Position numbers and translations under genes: made by a program. A stretch of 62,994 bases of DNA, the filler included, from Reclinomonas americana ATCC 50394 (taxonomy: Eukaryota): assembly GCA_048213135.1 (NCBI GenBank). It is 5 parts of 2 records of this genome, joined end to end, with 100 filler letters (N's around TTAATTAATTAA, not from the genome) between each part and the next. Parts side by side here need not be neighbours in the genome. Positions count along the whole stretch, not along the records: positions 29,271 to 46,997 come from PS015663.1; 4 more parts are not named here. One strand, written 5' to 3'. The notes beneath the pieces were generated by a model, which ran no database searches, had not been told where the DNA came from, and saw only the letters and a program-made list of their open reading frames with translations. Positions 28,852 through 62,455 of this stretch are shown piece by piece (positions within the stretch are counted from its first letter, which is position 1; each line of letters begins with the position of its first letter).

Positions 28852-29279
28852 GGTTCGTTGCCTTCTCACTCCACAAGGGCCATTGCACGTAGCGTCTCTC
28901 TCTCATTCACCATTCTGATGAGAGCCTGCGTTGCTGTTGCTCATACATTGCCTTTCTCCTTGTTTCCATTCCATGTCGCCTGCATTCTCTCTGCTTTGTG
29001 CCTGTGCCACTCTGAATCGTCCTTCATCTCTCCCTGGCATGTGCTGTATCTCTGTTGGCCCGCGCTGCACCTGCCTCATGAACTCTGTTGCTTTCTCTGC
29101 CACACGTCGTCGTTCCCTCTCCGCACTCCAACATCTTCCACTCGTTGGCATTCTCACCACGTCAAGTGCCNNNNNNNNNNNNNNNNNNNNNNNNNNNNNN
29201 NNNNNNNNNNNNNNTTAATTAATTAANNNNNNNNNNNNNNNNNNNNNNNNNNNNNNNNNNNNNNNNNNNNCGGGTGCGG

Positions 29280-32025: not shown

Positions 32026-34394
32026 TCAGCTGCTGCTCGGTGGTGGCGCCGGCTCGGCACACGCCACCGACTCGCCCGAGAACTGCTTCCACAAGATCTC
32101 CATCTCCCCCACCTCCTTGATGTGATGCACGGCCACGACGCCTTGCTTCAGCTGATCGCCGCCGTACACATCAAAGCCGGTAAAGGGCAGGTCGTACACG
32201 ATCTTGCCGTTGTTGTTGTAGAGGTAGCCGCCGAGGCGGACCTTGACGCAGTACGACAGGATGTGGTCGCCCTGCACGCACAGACACACAGAGTGTGAGA
32301 GAGAGGGAAAAGACGAAGACGACGACGACCTCGGAAAGGCGCAACATTGTACGGCGCACGCGGTTCCACACTGGGGAAATACTGATTGTGCCGGCGCTGC
32401 ATGTCCTCCAGATCCACATTGCACGACAGGATGGTGCCGTGGCGCACCAACTCACGCATTGCCGCCCCCGAGAACATGTATGTGCCGCCGTACACGATGC
32501 CCAGCAGCTCCCCCGAGAGCCACACGTCGGTGCCCACTGAGTACAGAAACAATATCAGCGCAAAAAAAATCGGACGCATGGCCAGGAGCACGCACGCGCA
32601 CCATCAATCATCGCCTTCTCCGTCTCCCACAGCAGCTGGAGCATGCCCTCCGGCTGCAGCACCATGTCGTCGTCCAGGATCAAGTAGAAGCGCTTGTCGG
32701 GGAAGGCGCGCCACAAATCAATGGGCGCAAACTGCATCTTGCGCTGTCCGGTGCTCTTGTTGGCGCGAAAAGGACACCCGGAGATCTTCTGAATGCCGAG
32801 CTCGGGCACGTCGCGATCCGACAGCACCACATGATGCGGAAACGAGCGCAGAAACGTGCGCTGCTGACACGCCACGCGCACCGTGTCCTGAAAGCGATGC
32901 GACACAATCGCCACGCCCACGTCGTCAAACGAGGGAGCGCGAGTGCGTGCACGCTCCACGTACGTTCCCCACGCGGGTGTAGGGCTGTAGACGTTGGAGC
33001 TGTGGAGTGGGCGGGAAGTGAGAAGAGTGTGAAGGCGGGTCCAGATATCGATGGGAGAGGGTGAAGGTGAAGGGGGAAGGGGAGGGAGGGAGAGAGGGAG
33101 AGAGGGTGATGGGAGAAAGAGAAAGTGCGTGAGTCTGTCTGAGTGTAGACTGTGAAAGTAGTATCTGTGCGCAGCCGTGTGTCCAGTGCCGATATCAAAG
33201 GGCAGAGACACACGAGGGAGGGGGGGGGGGGGGGGGGGGGGAGAAGGAGGCAGGGGAGGGANNNNNNNNNNNNNNNNNNNNAAAGAGAAAGTGCGTGTGC
33301 CAGTCTGAGAACTGTATTCGTGCGCAGCCATCTGTGTTCAGCGTCGATATCGATGGGCAGAGACACACAGAGAGGGGGGAGAGGGCGAAGGAGGCAGGGA
33401 GGGAGAGTGTGTGTGAGAGAGAGTGAAGGGAGAAAGAGAAAGAGAAAGTGCGTGAGGCTGTCTGAGTATTGCATGTCAGCGTGGTATCTGTGCGCAGCCG
33501 TGTTTCCAGTGCCGATATCGATGGACGGACACACAGAGAGGGGGAGAGGGTGAAGGAGGCAGGGAGGGAGAGAGTGTGAGAGAGAGAGAGGGTGAAGGGA
33601 GAAAGAGAAAGAAAAAGTGTCCGTTTGTCTGAGTATTGAACGTCGTGTCTGTCTGCTTCTCCGTCTGTGCGCAGCCGTGTGTGTCCAGTGCCGATATCGA
33701 AGGGCAGACACAGAGAGGAAGGGAGAGGGTGAAGGGTGAAGGAGAGAAAGGAAGAAGGGAGAGAAGGGAGAGAGAGAGAGTGCGTCTGAATATTGAATGT
33801 TCTGCCTCTGTCTGTCTGCGTGCATCTGTGCGCAGCCGTGTGTGTCCAGTGGTGATATCGATAGGCAGACACAGAGAGGAGGGGAGGAGAGAGAGGTCAA
33901 AGGAGAGAGAGCAAGGAAAAAGACAGACAGAGACAAAGAGAGCGAGAAAGAGCGACAGAGAGAGAAAGAGAGATTCTCAGTGTCTGCCTGTCTGTCTGTC
34001 TGTCTGTCTGCGTGTGCGTCTGTGTGTCTGTGTGTCAGTGTGTGTGTCAATGAGTGTGCGCGCGCTTACTCAACTCTTTCAACCGTCTCGGTCCAAACAA
34101 CGCCTCGACCGCTGCATCCCACCACGACAGATGCGGCAATCGCCTATGCGCATGCTGTGACTCACGCTCACACTCCAACGCTGCACCACCACCACCAGTC
34201 ACTCTCTCACTCTCATCATCAATGAGAAAAGGGCGCGTCAAGTGCGCGGCCGTGACTGTGAGCGCGTTGTTGTTGTGCTCGCGAGAGACGACGAGTGTGG
34301 TGATGGCGATGGCGATGAGAATGGCGGCGGGGAGGAGCAAGAGGCAGAGGAATGTGCGAAGGATGAACCGCCATCGCGTTGCCGCCACTGCCAT
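32026..34394 (-). CDS. Type II membrane glycosyltransferase, GT31 (Fringe/galactosyltransferase-like)
   Basis: N-terminal TM (FILRTFLCLLLLPAAILIAIAITTLVV), FPDKRFYLILDDD (DxD motif), YGGTYMFSGAAM, N|GDHILSYC and AVHHIK; four exons. Confidence 0.75.
33040..33880. repeat. Intronic tandem array of ~160-175 bp units (5 copies plus a partial)
   Basis: CTGTGCGCAGCCGTGT…CCAGTGCCGATATC…GGGCAGA at ~33165, 33320, 33487, 33665 and 33825. Confidence 0.85.
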
Positions 34395-34616
34395 TTGTGA
34401 TTGATTGTTTTTTCGAAAATTCTCGCGCGAATATTCGTGCTGGAATATGCGTGATTGCCTTTTTGGGTGAGTGGGTGAAGGAGGAGGCGGAGGAGAAGGG
34501 GGAGGGGAGGAGAGGGAAGGGAGAGGGGAAGGGAGGGGAGAAAAGAGAGAGAGAGATACACACAGAGAGAAAAGAGAGAGAGAGAAGAGAGAGTGAGTAT
34601 GTGTGAGCGTGTATGC

Positions 34617-34658
<42 letters not shown>

Positions 34659-34952
34659 TCTAGAGATCAAGAGAGAGAAAGGCAGAGAGACGGATGAGTG
34701 TGTGAGAAAGAGAGAAAGAGAAGCGCAAGAGGTGAGCGACTAAAACAGGAGAGAACGTGAGTCCCCGCGCGCGCGCCCTCGACGTCGATCATCTTTGGAC
34801 TGCATGAACACTTCTTCCACATCCCTCGCTTGGTTTGCGCAAAGAGTGTGGATATTGCAGTGCATGCAGTGTGATACGGTGGCACCGGCGACAGGAAGTT
34901 TGCTGTCCGCCAAAATGCATCGTCCTTCTTGTTGTCCGACAGGCGAGTCGTC

Positions 34953-37900
34953 ATGCGTCGGAGCGGAGGTCGTGCGCGGACTTTCGAGGAGGTCGTGCAA
35001 CAGTACGATGAGGCCTTGCAGTATTTTGACAGTGGTGATTATGCGACTGCGGCAACCCTCCTCGCTCGCTGCATGCGTGACTTTGAGGACTTGCGCGGCC
35101 TTGATGACGATGCATGGACTCTTGCGTGTGCACACAACTACGCGAATGCTCTCTTGAGTTCGGAAGATGCACAGAGCGCGTTGCTGGTGTACGAGGATGT
35201 GCTGGAGAGGAGGAAGCGCGTGTTGGGTGCGACTCACAAGGCGACATTGATTTCGGCTTCCTGCATGGGCAATGCGCTGAGGCGGCTCGGGCGGCATCGC
35301 GAGGCCATTGCATTGCTGCGCGACACGGCAGAGAAGCAAGAGCGCTATGGGGCCAAGGAGGACGTCAAGGATGTGTTGGCAACGTTGCATCGCTTGGCAC
35401 AGGCGCTCGATAAAAACAAGGAATATGAGGAATCGATCCGGATTTCACGTGACGTTGTGCGCCGGAGACGTGAAGTGCTGGGCGAGGATCACCCCTCGAC
35501 GCTGACGAGCATGTATAACATGGCAGTGACGCTGGCCGACGCAGGCGGTTTGGCCAGTCTGGAGGAGGCGTTGGAGATCTTTGAGGAGGTGTTGCCACTC
35601 CGTCGCCGCTTGCTGGGACCGGACCACGAACACACCAAGAACACGGCTGCCAGCATCACCTACACCCGAGCAGCCATTGCGACACTCCGCAAGGCTTCTT
35701 CGACGACTTCCCCATCTGGTACGTCAGTGATGCACTCTTTTATTCCTCCTCCACACTCTTGTTGTTCATCCGCAACTGCAGCTTCCTCTGCTTCTGCATC
35801 GGCTCCACCACCAGTGCGTTCTCCGGTGAGACAAACCTGACAAGTGCCGATGCTTACCCAACACTGACCTCTCTGTGCACCAACCAGGCAGCCAGGGAAC
35901 TCGGCCCGGGAACAGCAGCAGGAGGCAGCAAACGCACAACTTCAACGTAATCTGGTCGAACAGCAGCGCCTCGTGCAGCAACAGACGCAGGAGTTGACCA
36001 CGCTTCGCAGCCAGCAGTCACAATCGCAGGCCACCATCTCCCAGCTGCAGCGAGAACTGGCGCAACAACGGACGACGACGCAGCAGCACGAAGGAACCAT
36101 CGCGCAATTGCGGCGCGAGGTGGAAGAGCAACAGTCAGCGGTCCGCGAGCGGACTGCCCAAGTGGATGCATCGCAGCAGCAAGTGCAGCGACGCGATGCC
36201 ACCATCACTCAACTGCAGCGTGAGAAGAACAATCAGCAAGCCACTATCCGCCAGCGGATTGCCCAGGTGGAGGCAGCACAGCACCAGGCGCAGCAACACG
36301 AGGTCAGCATCGCGCAACTGCGGCGCGAGGCAGAGACGCAGCAAGCCACGATCCGCGAGCAGACTGCTCAGGTGGAGGCAGCACAGCAGCTGGTGCAGCA
36401 ACACGAAACTACCATCGCGCAATTGCGGCGCGAGGCGGAGGAGCAGTTACAGCGAGTCGGGCAGTTGACCGCTCAACTGGATGCAGTACAAGAGGCCGGT
36501 CGCGCAAGTGCAGCGAATGTTGCACGCCTGCAGCAGGAGCTGGAGGAGCAGAGGGCGCATGGGGAGCTGCAGCAAGAGGCCGCGATGCAGCTCCTGCGCG
36601 AGGAATGTGCGGCTCTTCGCGTCTCCCTGGAGCGAATGGACGAGCAGCGACAGCAAGAGTACGACCGAGCGCAACGACTGGCCGCTGATTTGGCCGCCGC
36701 GCAGCACGAGCTCAACCACCGCGGTGAGCATGAGTGAGTGTGTGGCGACGACTGCACATGCACTGCCCCACTAACCAGCGTTTTGCAGTTCCGCTCACGG
36801 CCTTTACCTGGGAGCAAGTTGGCGCCATCACATATGGCTTTGCTCGTCGTCTTGGCACGGGTGGACAGGGAAGCGTATTTTCTGGCACGTGGAAGGAGCA
36901 GCAGGTGGCTGTGAAGGTGTTCAACAGCGATGCGCCGTGGTGCATTGAGTCGTTCTCCAATGAGGTGAGAGTATTCGTGTGGGGAGACGCGGTGATCATC
37001 GCATTGTGTTGATAATTGTTTGTGCGGTACAGTTGGAGAAACTGAAGAGTGTGACGGTGCCCGGTGTGGTGCGCATGATTGGTTTCGCCGAGTCGGACCG
37101 CGGAGAAAAGTGCATTGTGCTGGAGGCCATGAGGTTGGTGGAGATCGAATTCTCTTGTTGCATGCAATTCTCCTGGCTCGTTTGTTGCTGATGCGCCATT
37201 CTTCTCTTGATCATTCTCAAGCGAGCACAACCTCGAGCACCGGTTGTTGGAGTATCAAGCACTCGGATTGCCCGTCATGGCCATCGAGGAACGGATGTCA
37301 TGCCTGCTTCGATGCTCGGAGATCGTGGCGGCGCTGCACAGGTGAGGCAGCGAGTGAAGTGGGAAGTCAGGTACATGTGGTCGTGTCTCATCGTCTCTTC
37401 TTGTTGTGCGCAGGATGGTTTGTGTCGCTGTCGTGCAACTTGTTGACGTCGTTTCTCACTCCCCTTCCCTCTCACTTTCTGTTCTCTCCTTCCCTCAGAA
37501 TGGTGAGTCTCTGTGCGCTCGGTTGTGAGTGGTGTGAGCTCGTTTATTCACCATGATTCGCAGTCATTCACCGCGACTTGAAGCCCGCCAACATCCTGTT
37601 TGACGAACGCGGCCAGGCATGCATCTCAGACCTGGGAATCGCGCACTGGTTCCGCACTGGCGGGGTGAGTCTCCTTTCCCATCCCTCGCCTTCCCACCGA
37701 TAATGTTCTCATGAGTGCACGTGTGGCGACAAGCAGACACACCTGTCGGTGCAGTTCGCCGGCGACCACGACTATGCTGATCCACAGGCACTGCGTGGCA
37801 TTCTGCGCCCCAGTACCGACGTATACTGCCTCGGATTCATCCTGCTGCAACTGTTCTCCGGTCAGCCAATTGCCGAGGTACACAAGTGGATCGAGGGAAT

Positions 37901-38387
37901 GGTGGAGGACGACGACGTGGCGAGACTCGATGAGGCCGCTGTGCTACTGGCCGACACCGCGGTCGGTCGGGGATGGCCCACGTCTGTCAATCGCCGTCTT
38001 GTGCGCTTGGCCATGCGGTGAGTAGTAAGCATCAGCCCCGTGCATGTTTGCACTGCGTATGTTGTCCCTCATGACTCAAGAAACAGCTGTGTCGACTATC
38101 GCCCCAATCGCCGCCCGAGTGCCGACGAACTGGTGACCGAGATGCGCGATCTCGCTGCGTTGTCGTGCCGTCGCGCGTGTGTTCTCTGTTACGATGTGCG
38201 CGACACTCGACTGCGTCCGTGCGGCCACGAGGTGTTGTGCCGCAACTGCGCGCAGCAAGTGGTCGAACGACGTGGCGAGTGTCCACTCTGTCGCACCTCG
38301 GTCACTCGCTTCGACTCGGGAGACGAATACGGATATCACACGATTGTGCTGGCGCCACTGTCGGCTGCGGCAGCTGTGAGCCCGTGA
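34953..38387 (+). CDS. TPR - coiled coil - RLK/Pelle(IRAK)-like Ser/Thr kinase - C3HC4 RING protein, copy 1
   Basis: Exons 34953-35718, 35782-35825, 35892-36723, 36789-36964, 37033-37133, 37222-37341, 37414-37417, 37499-37502, 37564-37664, 37734-38017 and 38087-38387 splice in frame. Motifs: [16 protein letters not shown] (42-aa TPR type), [35 protein letters not shown]…PCGH…CRNC…CPLCR. Confidence 0.9.
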
Positions 38388-39568
38388 TGACTGTTGGCAA
38401 GTGCAAAACATGTAATGACAGATTTCATCTGGCAAGTATCTCTCTTTCTATCTCTTGCCGCACCGCGTGCAGCTGTTAGAGGGAGTCTCAGACTGGCTGC
38501 AGGTGGCACCACTGTAGCTGCCGCAGCAGTTGCCGTTGCCAAGGTGAGTGCCAGCGGCCACGGCCGGGTAGTTGTTGCAGGGGTAGTGTGGCACTGGCAA
38601 GTCAGATCGGCCTCCGATTATGTGCACAAGAATGGGAGAGAGGGAAATAGAAGGGAGAGAGTGAGGAGCGATCAAGCAAGAAGCTGTGGGGCTGTAGCGA
38701 TGGAGATGATCAGTATCTCTTTCTCTCTTCATCGCTCATTCTCTCTCCTCTGTCACTTTCTCTTCGGCCCTCAATCACCTTGCAAAGAGCGATCGAAAAT
38801 AGGGAGTGCGCAGGTACAGAGACTGCGTTACAGTGCGAGGGGAACTGAGTGAGAGGTAGTGACTTTGGCGAGTGAAGATTGCAGTGCGTGCGAGAGGAAC
38901 ACGATCGTGAGGTGCGAACGAGGAGACTGAGCGCATGCGAGAGAAAAGACGTTCACGAGACGTTATGGTCGATCGATGAAGACTCCCTCTGCTCTACTCC
39001 ACAGATTTCCCTTTCTCGATTCAGCGATCGAAAGAGACTTGCATGCAGAGAGCACACACTCAAGACACTGTGGTGCACGTGATGTGCGAGATCGTGAGCA
39101 TCGAGGGAGACGAACGCGCGACGGTAACTGATCGCCGGTGAGATATGAGCAAGCAACCAGGCAAGAGTGTGAGAGCGAGTTTCTGTGGTGGTAAAGGATG
39201 ATGGCGAGTGGGTGTTGTAACGTGTTCGCGGCGATCTGGCAAGAACAGGATCTCGAACATATTTGTTATGGCACATGGAGGGAGGAAAGACCGACGGCAA
39301 CTGTTTCGATAATATCCATGCATTGCATAGAAGGGGAGCGACGTCGCTTGCTGTCTCAACGAAGCGACGTGAGCAGACTCGCCCTCGACGTTGATGGTCT
39401 TGCATTGGACTGCACAAACACTTCTTCCACATAGCTCGCGTGATCTGCGCAAAGAGTGTGGATATTGCAGTGCATGCAGTGTGTAATAAGGGGGCAACAA
39501 CCACAGGAAGTTGGTGCTGTCCGCCAGAATGCATCGTCCTCATGTTGTTGTCCGACTGTCGAGTCGTC

Positions 39569-42500
39569 ATGCGTCGGAGCGGAGGTCGTGCGCCGACTTT
39601 TGAGGAGGTCGTGCAGCAATTCAATGAGGCCCAACGGCACAACAGCAGTGGTGACTATGCCACTGCCGCTCCCCTTTACGGTACCTGCTGGAGAGATTTT
39701 GAGGACTTGCGCGGCCCCGACGATGAATGGACGTTGTTGTGTGCACACAACTACGCGCTTGCACTCTGCGATTCAGGAGATGCACAGAGCGCGTTGCCGG
39801 TGTGCGAGGATGTGCTGGAGAGGAGGAAGCGCGTGTCGGGTGCGACTCACAAGCGTACCCTGCTAACGGCTTCCTGCATGGGCGACGCGCTGAGTCGGCT
39901 CGGGCGTCATCGCGAGGCCATTGCATTGCTGCGTGACACGGCGGAGAAGCAGGAGCGCTATGGGGCCAAGGGGGGCGAGGATGTGTTGGCAACGTTGCAC
40001 AACTTGGCACTGGCGCTCAATTTCAACACGGATTACGAAGAGTCGATCCGGATTTCACGAGACGTCGTGCGCCGGCGACGTGAAGTGCTGGGCGAGGATC
40101 ACCCAGACACGCTGACGAGCATGCACAACATGGCATGTTCGCTGGCCGACGCAGGCGGCTTGGCCAACCTGGACGAGGCGTTGGAGATCTTCGAGGAGGT
40201 TTTGCCGCTTCGTCGTCGCGTACTTGGGCCGGACCACGCGCATACCAAAACCACGGTTGACCGCATTACCCACACCCGAGCGAAGCTCACCGCACTCCGC
40301 AAGGCTTCTGCGACGACCTCCCCATCTGGTACGTCTGTGACGCACTCTTTTTTGATTCATCCTCCACGCTCTTGTTGTTCATCCACGACTGCAGCTTCCT
40401 CTGCTTCCGCATCGGCTCCCCCGCCAGTGCGTTCCCCGGTGAGAGAAACTGACAAGTGCTGATGCTTGTCCGTCGCTGATTTCACGTGCACCAACCAGCC
40501 ACCACCGGTGAACTCGGCCCGCGAGCAGCAGCTGGAGGCAGCAAACGCACAACTGCAACGTGATCTGGCAGAGCAGCAGCGCCTCGTGCAGCAGCAGACG
40601 CAGGAGTTGACCACGCTTCGCAGCCAGCAGTCACAATCACAGGCCACCATCGCCCAGCTGCAGCGAGACCTCGCGCAACAGCGGGCGACGACGCAGCAGC
40701 ACGATGGAACCATCGCACAACTGCGGCGCGAGGTGGAAGAGCAGCAGACGGCTGTTCGCGAGCGGACTGCTCAAGTGGATGCATCGCAACAGCAAGTGCA
40801 GCGTCGCGATGCTACAATTACGCAACTGCAACGCGACAAGAACGATCAACAAGCCACTCTCCGCGAGCTGAGTGCCCAGGCTCAGCAACACGAGGCCACC
40901 GTCGCGCAACTGCTGTGCGAGCTGGAGACGCAGCAAGCCACTATCCGCGAGAGGACCACGCAGATGAATGCAGCGCAGCAGCTGGTGCAGCAACACGAAG
41001 CCACCATCGCGCAACTGCGGCGCGAGGCAGAGGAGCAGCGACAGCGAGTCGAGCAACTGACCGCTCAGTTGGATGCAGCGCAAGAGGCCGGTCGCGCAAG
41101 CACAGCAACTGTTGCACGCCTGCAGCAGGAGCTGGAGGAGCAGAGGGCGCATGTGCAGCCACAGCGAGAGGCCGTGGTGCAGCGCCTGCGCGAGGAATGT
41201 GCTTCTCTTCGAGTCTCTCTGGAGCGAATGGACGAGCAGCGCCAGCAAGAATACGACCGCGCACAACGACTGGCCGCTGATTTGGCCGCCGCACAGCACG
41301 AGCTCAACCACCGTGGTGAGTGCGAGTGAGTTTGTGGTGAAGACTGCAGATGCTGACCAGCGTTTTGCAGTTCCACTCACGGCCTTTACCTGGGAGCAAG
41401 TCGGCGCCATGACAAATGGCTTTGCCCATCGTCTTGGCACGGGCGGTCAGGGAAGCGTGTTTTCTGGCACGTGGAAGGAGCAGCAGGTGGCCGTCAAGGT
41501 GTTCGACAGCGATGCGCCGTGGTGCATCGAGTCGTTCTCCAATGAAGTGAGTGCTGCGTGTGTGCGGAGACCAGGTGATCATCCCCCTGTGTGTTTATTG
41601 CTTCTTGCTGGAATGCAGTTGGAGAAACTGAAGAGTGTGACGGTGCCTGGTGTGGTACGCATGATTGGTTTCGCCGAGTCGGACCGCGGAGAAAAGTGCA
41701 TTGTGCTGGAGGCCATGAGGTTGGTGGACATCGCGTATTCCTGGATGCATGCGGTTCTCCTGGCTCGTTATTGCTGATGTGCTGTTCTTCTCTCGTTGCT
41801 TCTCAAGCGAGCACAATCTCGAGCACCGTTTGTTGGAGTATCAAGCACTCGGTTTGGCCGTCATGGCCATCGAGGAACGCATGACATGCTTGCTTCGTTG
41901 TTCGGAGATCGTGGCGGCGTTGCATAGGTGAGGCAGCTGCTGCAATTAGAAGTCAGGTGCATGTGGTCGTTTCTCATCCTTTCTTGTTGTTGTACAGGAT
42001 GGTTTGTGGTGTCGTTGTGCAGCTTGCTGTTGACTTTGGTTCTCACTCCCCTTCCCTCTCACTGTCACTGCATTCTGTTCTCTCGCCTTCACCCAGAATG
42101 GTGAGTCTCCGTGAACTCGGTTGTGAGTGATTTGACCTCGCTTGTTAACCATGATTCGCAGTCATTCACCGCGACCTGAAGCCCGCCAACATCCTGTTTG
42201 ACGAGCGTGGTCAGGCATGCATCTCGGACCTCGGAATCGCGCACTGGTTCCGCACTGGCGGGGTGAGTCTCATTTCCCATCCCTCCCCTTCCCATCAATA
42301 ATACACTCATGAGTGTGGTGACTAGCAGACACACCTGTCGGTGCAGTTCGCCGGCGACCACAACTATGCCGATCCGCAGGCACTGCGTGGCATTCTGCGC
42401 CCGACTGCCGATGTGTACTGCCTTGGTCTCATTCTGCTGCAGCTGTTCTCGGGTCTGCCGATTGTCGAGGTACACAAGTGGATCGAGGCGATGGTGGAGG

Positions 42501-42979
42501 ACGACGACGCGGTGAGACTCGATGAGGCCGCTGTGCTACTGGCCGACACCGCGGTCGGTCGGGAATGGCCGACGTCTGTCTGTCGCCGTCTTGTGCGCTT
42601 GGCCATGCGGTGAGTAGTAAGCATCAGCCCCGTGCTTGTTTGCACTGCGTAGGTCGTCCCTCATGAATCGAGAAACAGCTGTGTTGATTATCGACCCAAT
42701 CGCCGCCCGAGTGCCGACGAACTGGTGACCGAGATGCGCGATCTCACTGCGTTGTCATGCCGTCGCGCGTGCGTTCTCTGTTACGATGTGCGCGACACCC
42801 GACTGCGTCCGTGCGGACACGAGGTGATGTGCCGCAACTGCGCGCAGCAAGTGCTTGAACGACGCGGCGAGTGCCCACTCTGTCGCACGTCCATCACCCG
42901 TTTCGACTCGGGAGATGAGTACGGATACCACACGATTGTGCAGGCACCACCATCAGCTGCGGCCGCCGTGAGCCCGTGA
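39569..42979 (+). CDS. TPR - coiled coil - RLK/Pelle(IRAK)-like kinase - RING protein, copy 2
   Basis: Same 11-exon structure and motifs as copy 1, frame intact; microexons at 41998-42001 and 42097-42100. Confidence 0.9.
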
Positions 42980-43989
42980 TGACTGATATTTGGAAGTGCA
43001 AAACATGCAATTACAGATTTCATCTGACAAGTATCTCTCTCTATCTCTCTTGTCTACTGCGTGCTGCTGTCAGAGGGAGACTGGACCGCTGTAGCTGCCA
43101 CAGTAGTTGCCGTTGCCGAGGTGAGTGCCAGCGGCCACGGCGGGGTAGTTGTTGCAGACGTAGTGCGGCACTGGCAAGTCAGATCGGCTGATGGAGACTG
43201 TGATTATGTGCACAAGAAGGGGAGAGAGAGGGAATTAGAAGGGAGAGTGTGAGGAGTGATCAAGCAAGAAGCTGTGGGGCTGTAGTGATGGAGATGATCA
43301 GTATCTCTCACTCTCTTCATCGCGCCTCATTCCCTCTCCTTTCACTCTTTCTCTCTAACACTCAATCATAGTGCAAAGAAGCGATCGAGGGAAGGCAAGT
43401 AGGGAGTGTACAGGCACAGAGACTCTGGAGAGGAACTGAGTGAGAGGCTGTGATTTGGCGAGTGAAGGTTGCCGTGCGTGCGAGAGAAACACGATCGTGA
43501 GGTGCGAACGAGCGAGACCGAATGCACACTAGAGAAAAGACGTTCACGAGACATTGTGGTCGATCGATGAAGACTCCCTCTGCTCTACTCCACAGTTTTC
43601 ACTTTCTCAACTCAGCGATCGAAAGAGACTTGCATGCTCTCTCTCTCCACTGGTATTCGATTTCCAAATTTGGATTATCGAATGCGCACGGCCCTCAAAT
43701 CCTGCACACGCGCGAGGACCCAACTCACCACATCGCCACCCTCTCTCTCCTCCTCCCCGTCTCTCCCCCACACCCACCTCCCCCTCTCCCTCTCACCAAG
43801 TTACTCCGCCACCATCAGCACGGAACAATTCCATCGAACGGCTCTACAATTTCGGAGATTGACGCGAGAGAAGACACACACACACTCTCTCTGCCCACAC
43901 TCTCACTCTGCGGTGGTCGTGCGCTCTGGTTGAATTAAGCCCCCTGATTCTCCTGTGCCACCCACATCCCGCTCCTGCGTGACCAACAA

Positions 43990-44832
43990 ATGTCCACTGC
44001 ACCACCTCCCCTCCCCGCCTCCCCCTCCTGGTCCGTCTCCTCGTGGATGTGGGGCCGCGACCCGCCCTCCTCCGCACGCAGCCCGCCTCCACCTCCCTCC
44101 GCACTGGCCGTGGTCGCTGTCGCCGTGGCCGCAGTGCGACAACGCCTCATTACCTCTCCACTGCAACAACCTCCACCGGCCGTCACCGCCTCATTCGTCG
44201 CTCAGCAGTCTGCTGCCAGTCTGCCTCCGCCTCCGCCTCTGATCGGTGGCGCTCGTGTGTCATCGCCGACAGAGTCACTCATGGCGTTGGTCAGTGAGTC
44301 ACTAGACGATGCCGACGATGACGACGACTTGCTCAACAACAACAACAATGATGGGCGGTACTCGCCGCCAGCGATTCGCCGCGTGCGTGTGGCCGCCTTG
44401 CACTTGTCCATCCCGCTGCCGCCGCACTTGCCGGCCAGGTGTTGCTCGTCGTCGTCGCCGCTGTCGTCGCCGGGAGGAAGTGCGCGGCCGCTGCAGTCGC
44501 CGTCGTCGCCTTCAATGGGAAGTGCGCCGCGGGGGCCGTTGCTGGTGCTGAATAGGCGGCATGAGCGGCGGCTGGGTCTGGCGCCGGTGGTCGATGCACC
44601 TGACCCGGACGATGATGATGACGAGGAGGAGGAAGAAGAAGAAGATGGCGAGGAGAATGACTACGATGACGATGACGACGACGAGGAAGAGGATGACGAG
44701 GAGGAGGGGGAGCAGTGGGAGCGAGCGTCGTGGGCCGACGAGCAAGACGAGGAGGCGCCGGCAGGGCGGAGTAGCAAGGCGCAGGCGGCGCAGTGGCGGT
44801 CGTCGCAGTGGGTGTCGGAGTTTGCTGGCTGA
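43990..44832 (+). CDS. Intronless 280-aa low-complexity protein (Pro/Ser-rich, long acidic tract, Trp-containing tail)
   Basis: Open ATG-TGA frame with coding-like GC content followed by an AT-richer 3' region; no recognisable domain. Confidence 0.5.
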   Translation: MSTAPPPLPASPSWSVSSWMWGRDPPSSARSPPPPPSALAVVAVAVAAVRQRLITSPLQQPPPAVTASFVAQQSAASLPPPPPLIGGARVSSPTESLMALVSESLDDADDDDDLLNNNNNDGRYSPPAIRRVRVAALHLSIPLPPHLPARCCSSSSPLSSPGGSARPLQSPSSPSMGSAPRGPLLVLNRRHERRLGLAPVVDAPDPDDDDDEEEEEEEDGEENDYDDDDDDEEEDDEEEGEQWERASWADEQDEEAPAGRSSKAQAAQWRSSQWVSEFAG

Positions 44833-44930
44833 GGTGGATCGCCTTATGATAGTTTTGAAAAACAATAAGTGTATAGCAGTGGTGTAATGTGAAAAGGGGA
44901 AGGGGAAAGGGGGAAGGGGAAGGGGAGAAG

Positions 44931-46304
44931 AGAGCGAACACACACAAAAGAAACATGCTGCTTCCTCAATACTTGTGTTTGTGTTGATGTTTTGAATAGG
45001 GTTGAACTTGTTCATCAAGACAGCTGTTGCTTGGTTGTTGGTGAATGAGTTGTTGTTGTAGAGCAGCATCAGCACTGCGAAAAACAACACTTATTGCAAG
45101 ACGGATATCGATATCGATATCACGGCCAAAAACGGGGAAAATGTCCACTTCCTTGCCGACAATGATGTCTCTCTACCATTTTCCGGGGTTTTGGGGAGTT
45201 CCTTTCCTCCAGCACATGCGCTGCAAAGTGCACGTGCATGCAAGTCATCTGAAAAAAGCGAACATGTCCGAATTCCGTATATACCGTACTTCTTATCCAG
45301 TTTGAGTCAAGTTCAACTCGCGTCCCCCATTTACAATCGCCCATCCACGAGAGCCAACACCATCCGGACATGCACCCTCTTCTGCTCCTTGCCGCCATGG
45401 CGGTGATGCTGCTAAGTTGCAACGTGCTGTCCGCCCATGCGCTGTGCGAGAACATGAGTGAGAGCGACGACATGTGGTACTGGTAGGCGCGATGACGTTA
45501 GCAACAAGACATGTACCAGGCACACTCCTCTCTCACACCCTCCTCCTTCCCCCACGCAGCTTGCCCTGCGGAGGCATCTACACGTGCTCCAACATGGTCG
45601 GCCCCGCCGATTCGTGCTGGACCAGCAGTGTGCCAGACTGCCATCTGCCCCACTTTTCAAACCAGTGGCTGTGCTGTCGGAACTGTGACGTCAGTGGCGC
45701 TGGCGAGTGTACGTGGCTCGGCAACAATCCCGGGCCGACGCCGCCCGGCCCCACTCCGCCCGGCCCCACTCCGCCAAATCCCGATCCCGGCAACCGCGGC
45801 TTTTGTCTGGGCGGACCCGGCTGCTCGTGCATTGGCGGCGCTGTCGGGCAGGTTTGCCTGCTGGTGTTCCTCGGAATCATGCTTGTCGTCGCCATTATTG
45901 TGGTCGTCACGGTGCTGCTCGTCATGCGCTACAACCGGCGCCGTCGCAAGGCGCGCGAAATGGCACCGGTGGAGTACCGACATCTTCCGACTCCGTCCGG
46001 ATCCGAACCGGCAATAGAGGCCTACAGTTACAATGGTGCGGCTCCCGTGCAGCCGTCTGTGCAGCGGCCGTCTGGGTTCTCGGTGCAGAACTAGCAAGGA
46101 AGGGGAAAGAGAATCACACAAGTCAGCAAGACAGAGCGCGAGCTTGTTGACGAATGAATCGGTGCTCAACACAGCAACAACAATTTATTCACCAACAAAC
46201 AAGCAACAGCTGTCTTGATGACCAAGTGCAACCCTGTCCAAAATATCAACACAGACACCAATCTTGAGGCAGCAGCCGGTTTTTTGTGTGTGTGTGCTCG
46301 CTCT
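44931..46304. repeat. ~135-bp imperfect inverted repeat pair (44931-45066 and 46163-46304)
   Basis: TCATCAAGACAGCTGTTGCTTG.TTGTTGGTGAAT on the left is the reverse complement of ATTCACCAACAA.CAAGCAACAGCTGTCTTGATGA on the right. Similarity extends out to AGAGCG/CGCTCT ends. Confidence 0.9.
45370..46094 (+). CDS. Small type I membrane protein: signal peptide, Cys-rich ectodomain, (GPTPP)3 stalk, TM, short tail
   Basis: Exons 45370-45482 and 45560-46094 are in frame: MHPLLLLAAMAVMLLSCNVLSAHALC…CLLVFLGIMLVVAIIVVVTVLLVMRYNRRRRK…. Confidence 0.8.
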
Positions 46305-47227
46305 CGGAGCTCCGAACAAGTCGAGAACTGCGATCTTCACCGCATAATCGTGGATTACCTGCATTCTTTTGTGTTCAACGTAGTTGCGGAAGGTGACGCC
46401 TTCACTGCTTCGCCTGGCGCACAGATCCGGACCGGCTTGTATTCTTGCAGAAACTGCAGTTGCAACGCTGCAATTTGAAGGGTCCTCGGCCGGATCTGAA
46501 GGAAGCAATGCAGAACTTTATAACTCGACAGCTGTTTCCGAGACGAGAGTGAGGGGGTGCAAAAGATTCCAGCAGGAGTGAAAAAAGCCATGGCAAGCGT
46601 CAACGAATTCGAATAATTACAAGTGCAGTTGTGAAAGCTGCGGACACTTTCTGCAAAAAGATGCAGGTGGCGACCAGCACAGCTTCACTGCTGATCACCC
46701 GCGGGCAGTGCTTTCCACTTGCAAGGCCGCAAAAAAGCAGCTTTACATAAGAGGTACTACAAAAACTGCATTTTGGACAAGGACAATTGCGGTTTTTTGT
46801 CGTTCTCAGGCGCGAGAGTGACTGCTGCACTCTCTCCTTCTCTCTCGTGTGTGCCTGCTCTGTGCCAAAGATATGAGCTCGCCACGACCCACCAGTGGCA
46901 CACCTCGTCGTCATCAGCATCGGCATGGTCATCATCATCGCACAAACGATGATGATCATCATGCGAGTGGATCTTCTTCGTTGACTGCAGCAGGCGANNN
47001 NNNNNNNNNNNNNNNNNNNNNNNNNNNNNNNNNNNNNNNNNTTAATTAATTAANNNNNNNNNNNNNNNNNNNNNNNNNNNNNNNNNNNNNNNNNNNNGGA
47101 GGAGGACTCGGGGAGATGGGCGAGGGAGATATGCAGAATGTGGTGTTTATGCGTGGGCCACTGGAGGCGGATGATGTGGGGGCGACGGTGAGGGAAAGGG
47201 AAGGGAAGGGAGATAGGGGGAGAAGGA

Positions 47228-56142: not shown

Positions 56143-57628
56143 GGCGCGTGAGAGCTGTCAAAATGATAAGGTGCGGGACAACCCGGCACGGCTTTGAAGG
56201 GCTCCTGGTGAAGTGCATGGGAAGAGTGCGTGGGAGCACTTCAACAACACAAACACCATTCTCGCTTTGGATCGTTGCTCTCTCGGAGCTTCTGTTGCGA
56301 TCCGCAAGGCTTGGACAGCACGTCGCAGCTGTTTTGACCGCCCATGCCAATCATGCCAAGCTGCAGGCTTGTTCTATCTTCCCTCGCTGACCACCTTCGT
56401 CTGCATGCCTCAGTCCGACACGCGGGAGTGCAGCTGCAGTCGACGACGGCGAAGAAGAAGACGATGATGACGAGGAGGGTTAGCGTGACCGCCGACTGCT
56501 GCGCAGTCTCTTGCGTTCGGGCGATGCGCTTGGCGCTGGTGCAGCGGTGACCTGTTATACGAAAGAACTACAGCCTCATACTGTGTCTCCAATAACCCGA
56601 CTGCCAGTCTCCACAGCTGAAAGAATCTGAGGCCTTCCTCGTCGCTCCCACTCCCACTCTAGAAGCACAACTACTGTGCACTGGACCCTCTACTGTTCTC
56701 TTGATCTCAGCATAAACTTTGCTTCCAAATCTCCCTCTCTCTCCCTCTCTCTCTCTCTCCTCGTTCTTAAATTGCCAATTCCCGTGTCTCTTCCACTCCA
56801 AATCCCAGCCAAGTTCCACTCGTTCCCAACATAATGCCTTCTTCCCCTTCTCCCTCTTACCGATCCTCTCAAATCAGCAGCACAAACCATCTTTCCTCTT
56901 CGACAACTTTCTCCCTGTGGACCAATCCTTCACCATCCCTTCCCTTCCACCTCTTCCCTGCAAGTGAGCATCTCAAATCCCCCTCAGCACAATCGTGCCC
57001 TTCTCCTTTTCCCTACCTCCCTCTCCGAAGTGAATATCTCTCTCACACTGTACCGTTCCTTCACCATCCCTTCTCTCTCTTCTCACCATTCACCCTCAAA
57101 CTTTTCTGCACAATCATCTCAGCACAATCGTGCCCTTCTTCTTTTACCCTCCCTCCCTCTCCGACAATTGTCACTCTCCCGCACACTGGACCTTCTCGCT
57201 CCCTGCCTTCCCCACAAAATCGTCAACACAAACCACCTTGCACGCACCTTCTCCTGAACACCTTCCCTTCACCGCCCTTTCCCTTCTTGCCCCTCAGCAC
57301 AATCCACTGTGCACCATCTCCCCTCCAACAAGTGAACACCTTTCCTTACCGCCCTTTCTCCTCAAATCCTCAGCACAATCCACCTTGCACTGGCCCTTCT
57401 CCTTCCCCCCCNNNNNNNNNNNNNNNNNNNNNNNNNNNNNNNNNNNNNNNNNNNNTTAATTAATTAANNNNNNNNNNNNNNNNNNNNNNNNNNNNNNNNN
57501 NNNNNNNNNNNACCTACGTAACAACCTTACCTTACCTCCCTTCCTTCCTCCTACTACCTCCTACCACACTACCACCTACTCACCTCGCCGTCCTCTCCCC
57601 CCTCCCCCCCCCCCCCCCCCCTTCCTCA

Positions 57629-59929: not shown

Positions 59930-62455
59930 ATGTCCACCTCTCTCTTCGTTCAGACTCTGCACAGCATCGGTGGAAGGCCCAGCAGAGAATGTCATGACTG
60001 AGAACTTGTTCCGCAGTCTTGCTGCGTTCTTTCATCATGCTCACACTCTTCTCTATCTCACGCGCACACTGTCTGCATCTGCACTCGCCTATCCTCTCTT
60101 TCAGACCCTGGATTGCTTCTGTGAAGGCGCAGCAGAGAAGAGCGGTGATGTAGCGAGAGCACTCTTCTTGGCTTTTCTTTCTCCTCCGTTCTCTTCTCTC
60201 CTCATTCGCCTCTCCTTTCGTGTAGTCTCTGCACCGCTTCTGGGAAGGCTCAACACAGAGAAGAGCGATCACGAAGCGACTGCGCTTCTGCGCGTGCTCT
60301 CTTGTTGCATGTTCGTGCTCACACTTTTCTCACTGTCTTCCCGCGTTCTCTCTCGCTGTCTCTGCCACTATCTTCGTTCTGACCCTCGGGGATGGCAAGC
60401 TGAGGAGTGCTATCATGACTGAGATCTTATTCCGCAATCTTGCTGCTTTCTTAATGCTCACACTCTTTTCTCTTCTCTCTCTCACGCACACACTCCTCTC
60501 TCTCTCTCACGCACACACTCCTCTCTCTCTCACACGCACACACTGTCTGCATATTCACTCGCCTGTCCTGTCGTTCAGACTCTGCAAAGCTTGTGTGGAG
60601 GCTGAACAGAGAAGATGCGCACTTTTTCGTATGCTTTCTGGTCATGCATTCCTCATGCTCGCTCTCTTCTCTCTCTCACTGTCTTCTCTCGTTCTCTCTC
60701 TCTCTCTCTATTTCTATCCTGTCGTTTAGACCCTGCATAGCTTCTGTGAAGGCGCAGCAGAGAAAAGCGGTGATGCAGCGAGATCACTCTTCTTGGCTTT
60801 CTTGATTCGTCGCACGTTGCTCTCTCTCTCTCTTTCCCTCTCTCCCCTCCCTCTCTCCCCTCCCTCTCTCCCTTCCCTCTCTCCCCTCCCTCTCTCCCGT
60901 CTTGATCTCTCCCTCCCCATCATCCACTAACTTCTCGCCTGCCCTCCCCCTCACTCAGGACCGCGTGGTCGGCGCTCTGCTCGGCACGGTGCAAGACAGT
61001 CTGTTTGAGATCAAGAATGCATTCCCGCTGCAAGTCAACGTGGAGGTGCGGTGAAACACAGGCAGCACCATTATCTACACGCATGCACGCAATGCTGCAC
61101 ATAGAAGCATTGTCCGGCCGTGCAACATGTTCTTGTGCTCATGCGCCCTTTCCTTTCACACAGACGGGTGCCATCGACACGGAGCACTTTAGCAGCATGC
61201 TGCAATTGCAGCTGAAGGTCAACAAGGAGGAGGTGGTGATTGGCTGGTTGGTTTCTCGTTCCCTCGCTGCCTCTCTCGCTCTATCTCTTACCGTTGCGGT
61301 CAGGTACTCCACCGGCAAGAATGTGGGCGACGCAGCACGTTTCTTTGAGTTCTTCCAGCCGCGCTCGTTCCAGGGACGGCCAGTGCATCTGTTGCTTGAC
61401 ACTTCGTTGACAGCTGGTGAGTTGTTGGGCAGAGAGAGTGAGAGGAGAATGAGGGTGATGAGAACTACAAGCTGTTCATGCACGAGGACAATGTGCAGCG
61501 TGCAAAGAGAAAAAGAAAATGGCGAGGGAGATGAGAAACCCGCGAGTACTGCAAGCTGTTCATGCACGAGGACGATGTGCAACTTGTAAGAGAACAAGAG
61601 GAGGAGGATAGAGAGAGAGAGATAACAGAGGAGGAGAATGAGAGAGGTAAGAAAACAGGGAGAAGAGCTGAACGTGAAAGAGGGTGAGAGAAAGTGACGC
61701 AAGAGGAATGTACGAGGAAGAAAGAGAGATCAAAAAAGAAGAGACAGAAAGAGAAGGGAGGATGAATTGCGAGAAAGCCAGAGAGTGAGAAAACAAAGTG
61801 AATGAGAAAGAAAAAAGGAATGGAAGAGAAGACCAATCTTTCTCGCTTGCATCTTTCTTCAAAATAGAATGAGAACCGAAAGACAATGGAGAACGAAAAG
61901 AGAATGAGTTGCGAGAAGTTAAGAAATGATAACAGGCCAGAAATGGAAGCCATTGCCGCTCTTCTCTCACTCATCTCTGCTTCTCTTCCCCCGCACGCAG
62001 AGGGCTTCCGACCACAGTCATTCAGCATCCGACCAGTGGCCTTCGAGACGTACATTATCGGCTACCAAATGGTGCCGCTGCCGACCAGTGTCCTCAACTC
62101 AGGAATCGAGATGATTGGCTGTTGCGTGAATGGGATGAAAGATGTCTTTTCTATTCCACTTTGCTCTCGGGTTTCACCTATTCCCGTGAGAAAACTTGTG
62201 CCCGTCTCTTCTGATGATGCTCTCTCTTATTCGCTCTCTTTCTCTTGGGTTTCCATCTGCTGCACTTTTCCCTTGAACGAGCTCTAAGTCGTTTTGTTAT
62301 TGCTGCCAACTGAGTGTGATTCGTTTGATGAACTCGCTTTGCGTCTCTTGACTGGTATCTTCCCATCTTTCTCTATGTGCTGCACTCCTCCTGCACATTG
62401 AACCCTGATAACATTCGCGTTGTCGCCGACGCACACAGCTTCTCACCCTTTCTTT

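What the first reader, a model, noticed from the sequence alone, without database searches (positions are those of the whole stretch)
37342..37563. Two consecutive 4-nt microexons (GATG, AATG) build the segment before the kinase catalytic loop
The upstream exon ends CAC AG (phase 2) and the HRD exon starts TC ATT CAC, so direct joining is out of frame. Between them lie cag|GATG|gtttgt (37414-37417) and cag|AATG|gtgagt (37499-37502). Including both gives LH-R-M-N-V-IHRD, the normal spacing. Both microexons and their splice signals are unchanged in copy 2 (41998-42001, 42097-42100) although the surrounding intron sequence has diverged. Skipping either or both frameshifts just before HRD, which could act as a splice-level off switch removing kinase activity and the RING.
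Basis: partly seen in the sequence, partly recalled or inferred. Interest (0 to 1): 0.75.

Follow-up and report, generated by a model that had tools for sequence, protein, structure and literature searches.

The report
Two four-base exons in kinase gene
A duplicated kinase gene of an intron-rich eukaryote can only be read in frame if a few extra bases are spliced in just before its catalytic motif, and the best candidates are two successive exons of four bases each, an extreme but not unprecedented gene structure that no RNA data could confirm here.

Summary
The sequence is as described. In both tandem copies of a TPR, coiled-coil, kinase and RING gene, the exon ending ...LH (CAC AG) and the exon starting TC ATT CAC (IHRD) are out of frame if joined directly. 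cag|GATG|gtttgt and cag|AATG|gtgagt lie between them.

Both halves of the kinase are under purifying selection in their own frames, so 2 (mod 3) extra bases must be spliced in.

I listed every GT/GC-AG chain that restores the frame. I then filtered them with rules taken from 12 other introns in the window. Only the 4+4 chain passes in both copies. It gives three introns of 72, 81 and 61 nt, each with its own branch-like motif and pyrimidine tract, and the signals are fully conserved.

Rivals remain: a single 8-nt exon (GATGGTTT), a longer first exon followed by AATG, or one exon starting at AATG. No RNA, cDNA or orthologue could be found, so inclusion is inferred (about 0.6).

The "off switch" idea is correct as arithmetic but has no evidence. 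Ultra-short and adjacent microexons are already known in plants.

Side finding: GTTGCG is a recurrent intron start in this genome.

The parts
37222..37341 (+). Copy 1, kinase exon ending ...IVAALH + AG (phase 2)
   Evidence: Frame and splice sites. It is 109/120 identical to copy 2, with 9 synonymous and 2 non-synonymous codon differences, the last three of them synonymous.
37342..37413 (+). Copy 1, sub-intron 1 (72 nt): GTGAGG ... CTCAT ... pyrimidine tract ... CAG
   Evidence: Branch-like CTCAT lies 23 nt before the AG and 48 nt after the 5' end. The pyrimidine fraction is 0.75.
37414..37417 (+). Copy 1, candidate microexon 1, GATG
   Evidence: It is part of the only chain that passes the rules in both copies. 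Inclusion in mRNA is inferred, not shown.
37418..37498 (+). Copy 1, sub-intron 2 (81 nt): GTTTGT ... CTCAC x2 ... strongest pyrimidine tract of the gene ... CAG
   Evidence: Pyrimidine fraction is 0.95, with CTCAC 40 and 24 nt before the AG. A 24-nt block over the branch and tract is identical in copy 2.
37499..37502 (+). Copy 1, candidate microexon 2, AATG
   Evidence: It is followed by a consensus G|GTGAGT donor, and the 16-nt block CAGAATGGTGAGTCTC is identical in copy 2.
37503..37563 (+). Copy 1, sub-intron 3 (61 nt): GTGAGT ... TTCAC ... CAG
   Evidence: TTCAC lies 13 nt before the AG and 47 nt after the 5' end. It contains a second conserved GTGAGTG at 37525, a rival donor.
37564..37664 (+). 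Copy 1, catalytic-loop exon (x)[12 protein letters not shown]...DLG...
   Evidence: Pfam Pkinase 34.7 bits against a cut-off of 31.7, profile positions 119-150. There are 6 synonymous and 0 non-synonymous codon differences from copy 2.
41808..41927 (+). Copy 2, exon ending ...AALH + AG
   Evidence: Mapped through the pairwise alignment.
41928..41997 (+). Copy 2, sub-intron 1 (70 nt)
41998..42001 (+). Copy 2, candidate microexon 1, GATG
42002..42096 (+). Copy 2, sub-intron 2 (95 nt)
   Evidence: It differs from copy 1 by indels of 3, 9 and 2 nt.
42097..42100 (+). Copy 2, candidate microexon 2, AATG
42101..42161 (+). Copy 2, sub-intron 3 (61 nt)
42162..42262 (+). Copy 2, catalytic-loop exon
34774..43637 (+). 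Tandem duplication carrying the two gene copies (34774-39046 and 39380-43637, 85.5% identical)
   Evidence: Self-BLAST. Pfam finds TPR_10/TPR_12, Pkinase and zf-C3HC4_3.

Best explanation
The 222-nt interval between the ...AALH exon and the IHRD exon is not one intron. It is three ordinary short introns (72, 81 and 61 nt; 70, 95 and 61 nt in the paralogue) separated by two constitutive 4-nt coding exons, GATG and AATG. Each intron is probably recognised on its own by intron definition and the three are removed one after another, so a 4-nt exon is never handled as an isolated unit. The 8 inserted bases complete the codons for R-M-N-V. This links helix E to the catalytic loop (LH-RMN-VIHRD) and keeps the C-lobe and the RING in frame. 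Shown here: the sequence, the frame arithmetic, selection on both halves, conservation of the signals, and the fit to this genome's intron rules. Inferred: that the spliceosome uses exactly these four internal sites, and the order of removal.
For: 1. Something must be inserted. Codon differences between the copies are mostly synonymous on both sides: 21 synonymous to 6 non-synonymous in the three upstream kinase exons, and 38 to 17 in the three downstream exons. No single GT/GC-AG or AT-AC intron keeps both AALH and IHRD (28 and 39 in-frame joins examined).

2. There are 46 (copy 1) and 45 (copy 2) in-frame chains. I filtered them with rules from 12 reference introns: donor within 1 mismatch of a proven donor, YAG acceptor, YTNAY at least 40 nt from the 5' end and 8-45 nt before the AG, and intron at least 55 nt. 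Only the 4+4 chain passes in both copies.

3. The reference introns are fixed by residue-level matches to PSS, HECT and MPN. They are 57-113 nt long (one is 289 nt). In the short ones the 5' end lies 43-57 nt from the branch A. The three sub-introns fit at 48, 40 or 56, and 47 nt.

4. Both signal windows are 13/13 conserved, against 76% identity elsewhere in the interval.

5. The product has the H-x3-hydrophobic-hydrophobic-HRD spacing, with a polar residue before the hydrophobic pair. That position is G, R, H, K or N in 15 of 15 retrieved contexts with this spacing. The 4+4 product scores highest of the 10 variants against a profile of 64 kinase segments, 75.1 bits.

6. A rule-passing two-exon chain arose in 3 of 3000 shuffles.
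Against: There is no RNA, cDNA, EST-derived protein or orthologue, so inclusion is not observed.

The donor of microexon 1, GTTTGT, matches no proven donor exactly. The nearest is GTTGGT, 1 mismatch away, and G at +4 is invariant in the GTTG class.

With 2 donor mismatches allowed, a single 8-nt exon GATGGTTT also passes in both copies.

The protein profile hardly separates the rivals: 75.1 against 74.6 and 72.6 bits.

Fourteen-nt conserved blocks also occur elsewhere in these introns. One covers a second GTGAGTG at 37525, which could serve a 26-nt exon.

The generic microexon signature is not rare. It occurs at 6 sites in the window against a mean of 1.8 in 30 shuffles, and the two sites outside this gene look exon-internal.

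Conservation rests on a single paralogue.
Confidence: 0.62

Rival explanations
1. One 8-nt microexon, GATGGTTT (37414-37421; copy 2 41998-42005). It would be spliced from donor GTGTCG (copy 1) or GTGGTG (copy 2) across a 142-nt intron to the HRD exon, giving LH-RMVF-IHRD.
For: It is in frame and stop-free in both copies. It passes the intron rules when 2 donor mismatches are allowed. The best library hit, P0008, has F directly before IHRD. Exon ends of the form TTT|GT are used elsewhere in the window (HECT intron at 23241).
Against: The donor differs between the copies at +4 and +5, and neither version has G at +5. This model leaves unused the strongest 3' splice region of the gene (pyrimidine fraction 0.95, two CTCAC motifs, a 24-nt conserved block) and a perfectly conserved G|GTGAGT. 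It puts V at the position that is G, R, H, K or N in 15 of 15 contexts with this spacing. It scores 2.5 bits below the 4+4 product.
Confidence: 0.1
2. A longer first small exon starts at GATG and runs 13 to 31 nt to a downstream GT or GC, for example to GTTGAC at 37442 (42029 in copy 2). It is followed by the 4-nt AATG exon, which gives an 8- to 11-residue hydrophobic linker.
For: Several such chains are in frame in both copies. GTTGAC shares the GTTG core of the GTTGCG/GTTGGT donor class. Among the retrieved kinases, 15 of 56 distinct contexts have a long linker.
Against: By my count on the alignment, the extra 24 nt differ at 6 positions and carry a 3-nt indel between the copies. That is about 67% identity, which is intron-like; exons are 91-98% identical. 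The changes would be non-synonymous. These donors are 2 mismatches from any proven donor. Profile scores are 0.6 bits (16+4 variant) and 3.9 bits (19+4 variant) below the 4+4 product. This rival still contains a 4-nt microexon.
Confidence: 0.08
3. A single exon starts at AATG, so the GATG site is not used. Candidates are 8 nt (donor GTCTCT/GTCTCC), 14 nt, 23 nt, or 26 nt ending at the conserved GTGAGT at 37525.
For: All are in frame in both copies. The 26-nt version uses a strong, conserved acceptor and a conserved GTGAGTG (14-nt identical block). The 8-nt version scores 74.6 bits, almost equal to 4+4.
Against: Each must skip the better G|GTGAGT donor 4 nt after the acceptor. GTCTCT is 3 mismatches from every proven donor. 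The 26-nt version leaves a 39-nt intron with only about 25 nt from the 5' end to the branch A, whereas the minima in 12 reference introns are 57 nt and 43 nt. The 14-nt donor differs between the copies at +4 and +5. None of these passes the rules. The complete, conserved 3' splice region before GATG is left unexplained.
Confidence: 0.08
4. No in-frame mRNA is made. The interval is removed as one intron and both copies encode truncated proteins, or the frame is restored by something other than splicing.
For: No transcript evidence of any kind was found. The gene family has no close relative in 1.84 billion representatives (best hit 35% identity).
Against: The catalytic-loop exon, the C-lobe exon and the RING exon all show mainly synonymous, third-position differences between the copies: 38 synonymous to 17 non-synonymous, with 40 of 59 changed bases at codon position 3. 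The frame stays open to the same stop in both copies. That is not expected for untranslated sequence.
Confidence: 0.05

Closest known systems
Ultra-short internal coding microexons of plants (1-15 nt; Yu et al. 2022, PMC8831610; MEPDB, PMC12409088)
   Same: These are internal coding exons far below the size gene predictors accept, often missing from annotations. About half are not multiples of three, so they are needed to keep the frame. They sit in conserved protein motifs and are conserved in position and phase. [quoted passage not shown] I read the abstract, section 6 and passages of PMC8831610 and one passage of PMC12409088.
   Different: Here both neighbouring exons are 4 nt. Neither is in frame alone, so only the pair restores the frame. 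The host is an unidentified intron-dense eukaryote whose family has no close relatives. Nothing here is validated by RNA, whereas the plant cases were found from RNA-seq and some were confirmed by RT-PCR.
Three consecutive microexons of human RPS24 (3, 18 and 22 bp)
   Same: Several very small exons lie in a row between ordinary exons. I saw only the search listing and abstracts of PMC12207440 and PMC11162997.
   Different: Those are alternative 3'-terminal coding/UTR exons with known isoforms. Here the exons are internal, smaller, and presumably constitutive.
Microexons in kinase genes noted earlier in this scan (e1-635319, 6 nt; e1-636620, 3 nt; Naegleria and a relative)
   Same: A tiny exon supplies residues of a conserved kinase motif between short introns. 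These are AI notes only and were not checked here.
   Different: They come from a different genome and a different motif (APE), and each is a single exon whose length is a multiple of three.
Recursive splice sites (juxtaposed AG|GT ratchet points)
   Same: A 3' and a 5' splice signal sit almost back to back inside a stretch that is removed in steps.
   Different: Recursive sites leave no bases in the mRNA. Here 4 bases per site must stay to keep the frame. This comparison is recalled; no paper was read.

Membership tests
Ultra-short internal coding microexon (15 nt or less) | Internal exon of 15 nt or less, bounded by an AG acceptor and a GT donor, each belonging to a complete intron | tested here: met
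   cag|GATG|gtttgt and cag|AATG|gtgagt. The flanking introns are 72, 81 and 61 nt, each with a YTNAY motif and a pyrimidine tract.
Ultra-short internal coding microexon (15 nt or less) | Presence of the exon in mature mRNA (junction reads or cDNA) | not testable with these tools
The blank searches are listed under Tried and rejected.
Ultra-short internal coding microexon (15 nt or less) | Needed for an open frame and for a conserved protein motif | tested here: met
   The frame is open to a shared stop only with 2 (mod 3) extra bases. The 4+4 chain gives the H-x3-VIHRD spacing.
Ultra-short internal coding microexon (15 nt or less) | Conservation of size, phase and splice signals in homologous genes | tested here: inconclusive
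   It is met in the single paralogue (13/13 + 13/13). No orthologue was found, so the depth of comparison is one.
Eukaryotic protein kinase (Pfam PF00069) | Match above the curated cut-off, with catalytic HRD, the K of VAVK, a GxGxxG loop and a DFG-like motif | tested here: met
   The HRD exon alone scores 34.7 bits against a cut-off of 31.7. The spliced model shows [19 protein letters not shown] and DLG in place of DFG.
RING finger E3 (Pfam PF13920 zf-C3HC4_3) | Match above the curated cut-off | tested here: met
   41.1 bits against a cut-off of 27 on the last exon.
Regulated poison/essential-exon splicing switch (unproductive splicing) | Both the inclusion and the skipping isoforms exist, and their ratio changes with conditions | not testable with these tools
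   Only the arithmetic could be checked: skipping gives a stop 7 or 13 codons after LH.
Recursive splicing site | AG|GT juxtaposed so that no exon bases are retained | tested here: not met
   Four bases lie between the AG and the GT at both sites, and they must be kept for the frame.

The most novel reading that the evidence does not exclude
Both paralogues of a kinase-E3 ligase depend on two successive 4-nt exons, neither of which is in frame alone. Their inclusion could be regulated, so that skipping either one stops translation just before the catalytic loop. A conserved second GTGAGT at 37525 would offer an alternative in-frame 26-nt exon with a longer linker. Together these would make a splice-coded three-state switch: active, variant loop, or off.
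Probability: 0.08. Interest if true: 0.7.

Novelty: new member of a known kind. Interest (0 to 1): 0.45.

Why it matters
If the pair is real, it is among the most extreme exon arrangements described: two adjacent 4-nt coding exons that only work together. It is also a clean test case for how an intron-defining spliceosome handles splice sites 4 nt apart. In practice, any gene predictor would break or truncate both genes here, so kinase and E3 counts in such intron-dense genomes are probably underestimates. The side observation that GTTGCG is a common intron start in this genome bears on how its 5' splice sites are recognised, and it would improve gene models generally.

Tried and rejected
RNA evidence: no RNA holder was listed for window:34700-43700.

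Whole genome: none is held for this window.

Protein searches:
- Word-index search with the C-lobe exon, longer proteins: none.
- Word-index search with the exon before the junction: none.
- Word-index search with the HRD ORF: only 4 bacterial-type kinases.
- Full HMMER search of 1.84 billion representatives with the C-lobe exon: 42 hits, best 35% identity, no orthologue.

Metagenome contigs: the protein-pattern scan found 162 pattern matches but none confirmed. An exact 28-nt exon pattern had 0 matches.

Earlier scan notes: nothing for this genome or this sequence.

Pfam on the exon before the junction gave no hit, so the missing residues could not be counted on the Pfam profile.

An unsupervised ORF-rescue intron finder gave 21,026 candidates and was too noisy to use.

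Origin of the microexons by tandem duplication was rejected: the three sub-introns are not similar to each other (z of 0.9, 0.2 and -0.1).

Rfam and tRNA scans of the window found nothing. The ESM Atlas gave no usable lead to the organism (after two unanswered calls, 40 and 47).

Mamiellales outlier-chromosome introns were considered and rejected as the source of the odd intron starts. By the passages I read, those introns lack conserved motifs.

Literature searches for GTTGCG or GUUGCG as a splice-site consensus showed nothing on the topic in the 25 listed titles and abstracts (15 of 145 and 10 of 32 papers). I did not read the papers.

A 2-nt exon (TG, 37530-37531) was rejected because it is absent from copy 2.

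Full report
**Observation.**
- Copy 1: the exon ends ...GCG CTG CAC AG at 37341.
- cag|GATG|gtttgt is at 37414-37417 and cag|AATG|gtgagt is at 37499-37502.
- The next exon starts TC ATT CAC CGC GAC at 37564.
- Copy 2 has the same four-base pieces and the same six-base donors at 41998-42001 and 42097-42100, between exon end 41927 and exon start 42162.

**Context.** The two copies are a tandem duplication (34774-39046 and 39380-43637, 85.5% identical). It lies inside one gap-free stretch of the assembly, 33282-46997. Each copy encodes TPR_10/TPR_12 repeats, a long coiled coil, a protein kinase domain split into small exons, and a C-terminal RING (zf-C3HC4_3). The catalytic-loop exon alone passes Pfam's Pkinase cut-off at profile positions 119-150. 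With the two 4-nt pieces included, the kinase-RING part is one open frame ending at the same stop in both copies. It contains [19 protein letters not shown] and DLG.

**Something must be spliced in.**
- Between the copies, the three upstream kinase exons differ by 21 synonymous and 6 non-synonymous codons. The three downstream exons differ by 38 and 17. Most changed bases are at third codon positions. Both halves are therefore translated in the kinase frame.
- The upstream exon is coding to its last codon: the final three differences are synonymous.
- A stop lies three codons upstream of the HRD exon's acceptor, so that exon cannot be extended.
- I examined every single-intron join with GT-AG, GC-AG or AT-AC ends that stays in frame, 28 in copy 1 and 39 in copy 2. 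All of them delete either IHRD or the end of helix E, and none with a GT donor and the normal acceptor is shared by both copies.
- The mRNA must therefore carry 2 (mod 3) extra bases from the interval.

**Which bases.** Allowing up to three internal exons of 30 nt or less, GT or GC donors and introns of at least 30 nt, there are 46 in-frame, stop-free chains in copy 1 and 45 in copy 2. The main rivals present in both copies are:
- a single 8-nt exon GATGGTTT;
- a single 8-nt exon AATGGTGA;
- exons of 14, 23 or 26 nt starting at AATG;
- a longer first exon followed by AATG.

**Rules taken from other introns in the window.** To rank the rivals I fixed 12 other introns by protein-level evidence.
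- Five are in this gene.
- Two are in a HECT gene, fixed by Pfam profile coordinates.
- Four are in a phosphatidylserine synthase gene. Their spliced product is one clean frame and matches human PSS2 residue for residue at the junction ECWWDH|LLLDV.
- One is in an MPN/JAB gene. It restores the motif I recall as GWY(S/H)TG.
- They are 57-113 nt long, with one of 289 nt.
- Donors are GTGAG[T/A/C] in six, GTTGCG in four and GTTGGT in two.
- All end in YAG and have a YTNAY motif, mostly CTCAY, 11-30 nt before the AG.
- In the short ones the branch A lies 43-57 nt from the 5' end.

**Applying the rules.** The three sub-introns of the 4+4 model (72, 81 and 61 nt; 70, 95 and 61 nt in copy 2) fit all of this, each with its own motif. 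The rules were: donor within one mismatch of a proven donor, YAG, a placed YTNAY, and intron at least 55 nt.
- The 4+4 chain is the only one that passes in both copies.
- With two mismatches allowed, the GATGGTTT exon and some extended-first-exon chains pass as well.
- The 26-nt exon would leave a 39-nt intron with about 25 nt from the 5' end to the branch. That is well outside the observed range.

**Conservation.** Both 13-nt signal windows are identical between the copies, while the other 201 aligned columns of the interval are 76% identical. Fully conserved 13-mers make up 27 of 430 interior windows in this gene's introns.
- The longest identical runs in the interval are the branch and pyrimidine tract before AATG (24 nt), microexon 2 with its signals (16 nt), microexon 1 with its signals (14 nt), the final acceptor (14 nt), and CTCGGTTGTGAGTG (14 nt).
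- That last run is not explained by the 4+4 model and keeps the 26-nt rival alive.
- By my count on the alignment, the extra bases required by the extended-first-exon rivals are only about 67% identical. That is intron-like; exons are 91-98% identical.

**Protein level.** This evidence is weak.
- Of 56 distinct HRD contexts from the 46 retrieved proteins, 15 have the H-x3 spacing and 15 have a long linker.
- In the 15 with H-x3, the residue before the hydrophobic pair is G, R, H, K or N. This fits N in the 4+4 product and not V in the two 8-nt rivals.
- A profile of 64 kinase segments gives 75.1 bits for 4+4, 74.6 for AATGGTGA and 72.6 for GATGGTTT.

**Chance.**
- Shuffles of the interval yield some rule-passing chain in 7% of trials and a two-exon chain in 0.1%.
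- Window-wide, the generic signature (good acceptor, 12 nt or less, good donor, downstream intron signature) occurs 6 times, against a mean of 1.8 in 30 shuffles, none of which reached 6.
- Four of the six sites are the ones studied here, and they are two sites seen in two copies. The other two lie inside continuous reading frames and look like false positives.
- Such sites are therefore not rare in themselves. What is improbable is two of them inside the one interval that needs a frame repair, summing to 2 (mod 3), in both copies.

**What is missing.** No RNA, cDNA-derived protein, orthologue or further paralogue could be obtained (see Tried and rejected), so inclusion of the two exons is an inference. 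I put the exact 4+4 model at about 0.6, and at about 0.9 that at least one exon of 8 nt or less lies in this interval.

**The "off switch".** Skipping one microexon gives a stop 7 codons after LH, and skipping both gives a stop 13 codons after it. The arithmetic holds. Nothing indicates that skipping is regulated. [quoted passage not shown]

**Comparison with what is known.** Internal coding microexons of 1-15 nt are well documented in plants, including the green alga Chlamydomonas reinhardtii.
- About half are not multiples of three.
- Many are missing from annotations.
- A 4-nt cluster and an adjacent 5-nt plus 12-nt pair are described (PMC8831610; abstract, section 6 and passages read).
- Earlier notes of this scan report 3-nt and 6-nt exons in amoeboflagellate kinase genes (unchecked).
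- The present case is a new and rather extreme member of that kind, not a new kind.

Noticed in passing
window 25464-25407 (-), 25200-25136 (-), 25062-24774 (-), 23241-23305 (+); candidates at 14863, 17243, 17524, 52045 (+) and others: GTTGCG(T) is a recurrent intron start alongside GTGAGT. Four cases are fixed by residue-level matches (three in the PSS gene, one in the HECT gene). The hexamer occurs 64 times against 33.7 expected. 23 of the 64 are followed by a CTNAY..YAG signature giving introns of 55-100 nt, mostly 58-70 nt, compared with 5-29% for the 11 other hexamers run through the same test (10 of them 5-25%, GTTTGT 29%). Two literature searches listed nothing on such a 5' splice-site class (listings only).
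   Followed up: partly
window 61247-61303 (+) and 37134-37221 (+): GTTGGT also serves as an intron start. In an MPN/JAB gene it restores ..VIGW|YSTGK (57-nt intron), and it is the donor of the intron before the ...LH exon in both kinase copies.
   Followed up: partly
window 37525-37531 (copy 2 42123-42129): A second GTGAGTG inside sub-intron 3 sits in a 14-nt block identical in both copies. Used with the AATG acceptor and without GATG, it would give an in-frame 26-nt exon but a 39-nt intron.
   Followed up: partly
window 25932-26031, 29171-29270, 46998-47097, 57412-57511: There are four identical 100-nt spacers of the form 44 N + TTAATTAATTAA + 44 N. They look like artificial contig-joining linkers with stops in all six frames, so order and distance across them are not reliable. 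The studied locus lies between such gaps in one contiguous piece.
   Followed up: yes
window 25512-24700 (-): The base-exchange phosphatidylserine synthase gene is cut into very small exons (49, 78, 65 and 73 nt) by introns of 58-65 nt plus one of 289 nt. This shows a very high intron density, which makes near-adjacent introns, and hence microexons, more likely.
   Followed up: partly
window 34774-43637 (+): The architecture of TPR_10/12, coiled coil, kinase and C-terminal RING has no close relative. The best of 42 hits among 1.84 billion representative proteins is 35% identical over half of the C-lobe exon. The kinase has DLG for DFG and ADPQ where APE is usual.
   Followed up: partly
window 38018-38086 vs 42610-42678: The last kinase intron is 93% identical between the copies, as high as the exons, while the other introns are 72-85% identical. 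This may reflect local gene conversion or a constrained intron.
   Followed up: no
window 21990-22290, 34470-34740 and elsewhere: Long purine-rich (GA)n/(GGA)n and (GT)n simple repeats fill introns and spacers. One stretch is a roughly 600-nt intron-like gap in the HECT gene whose exact ends I could not fix.
   Followed up: no
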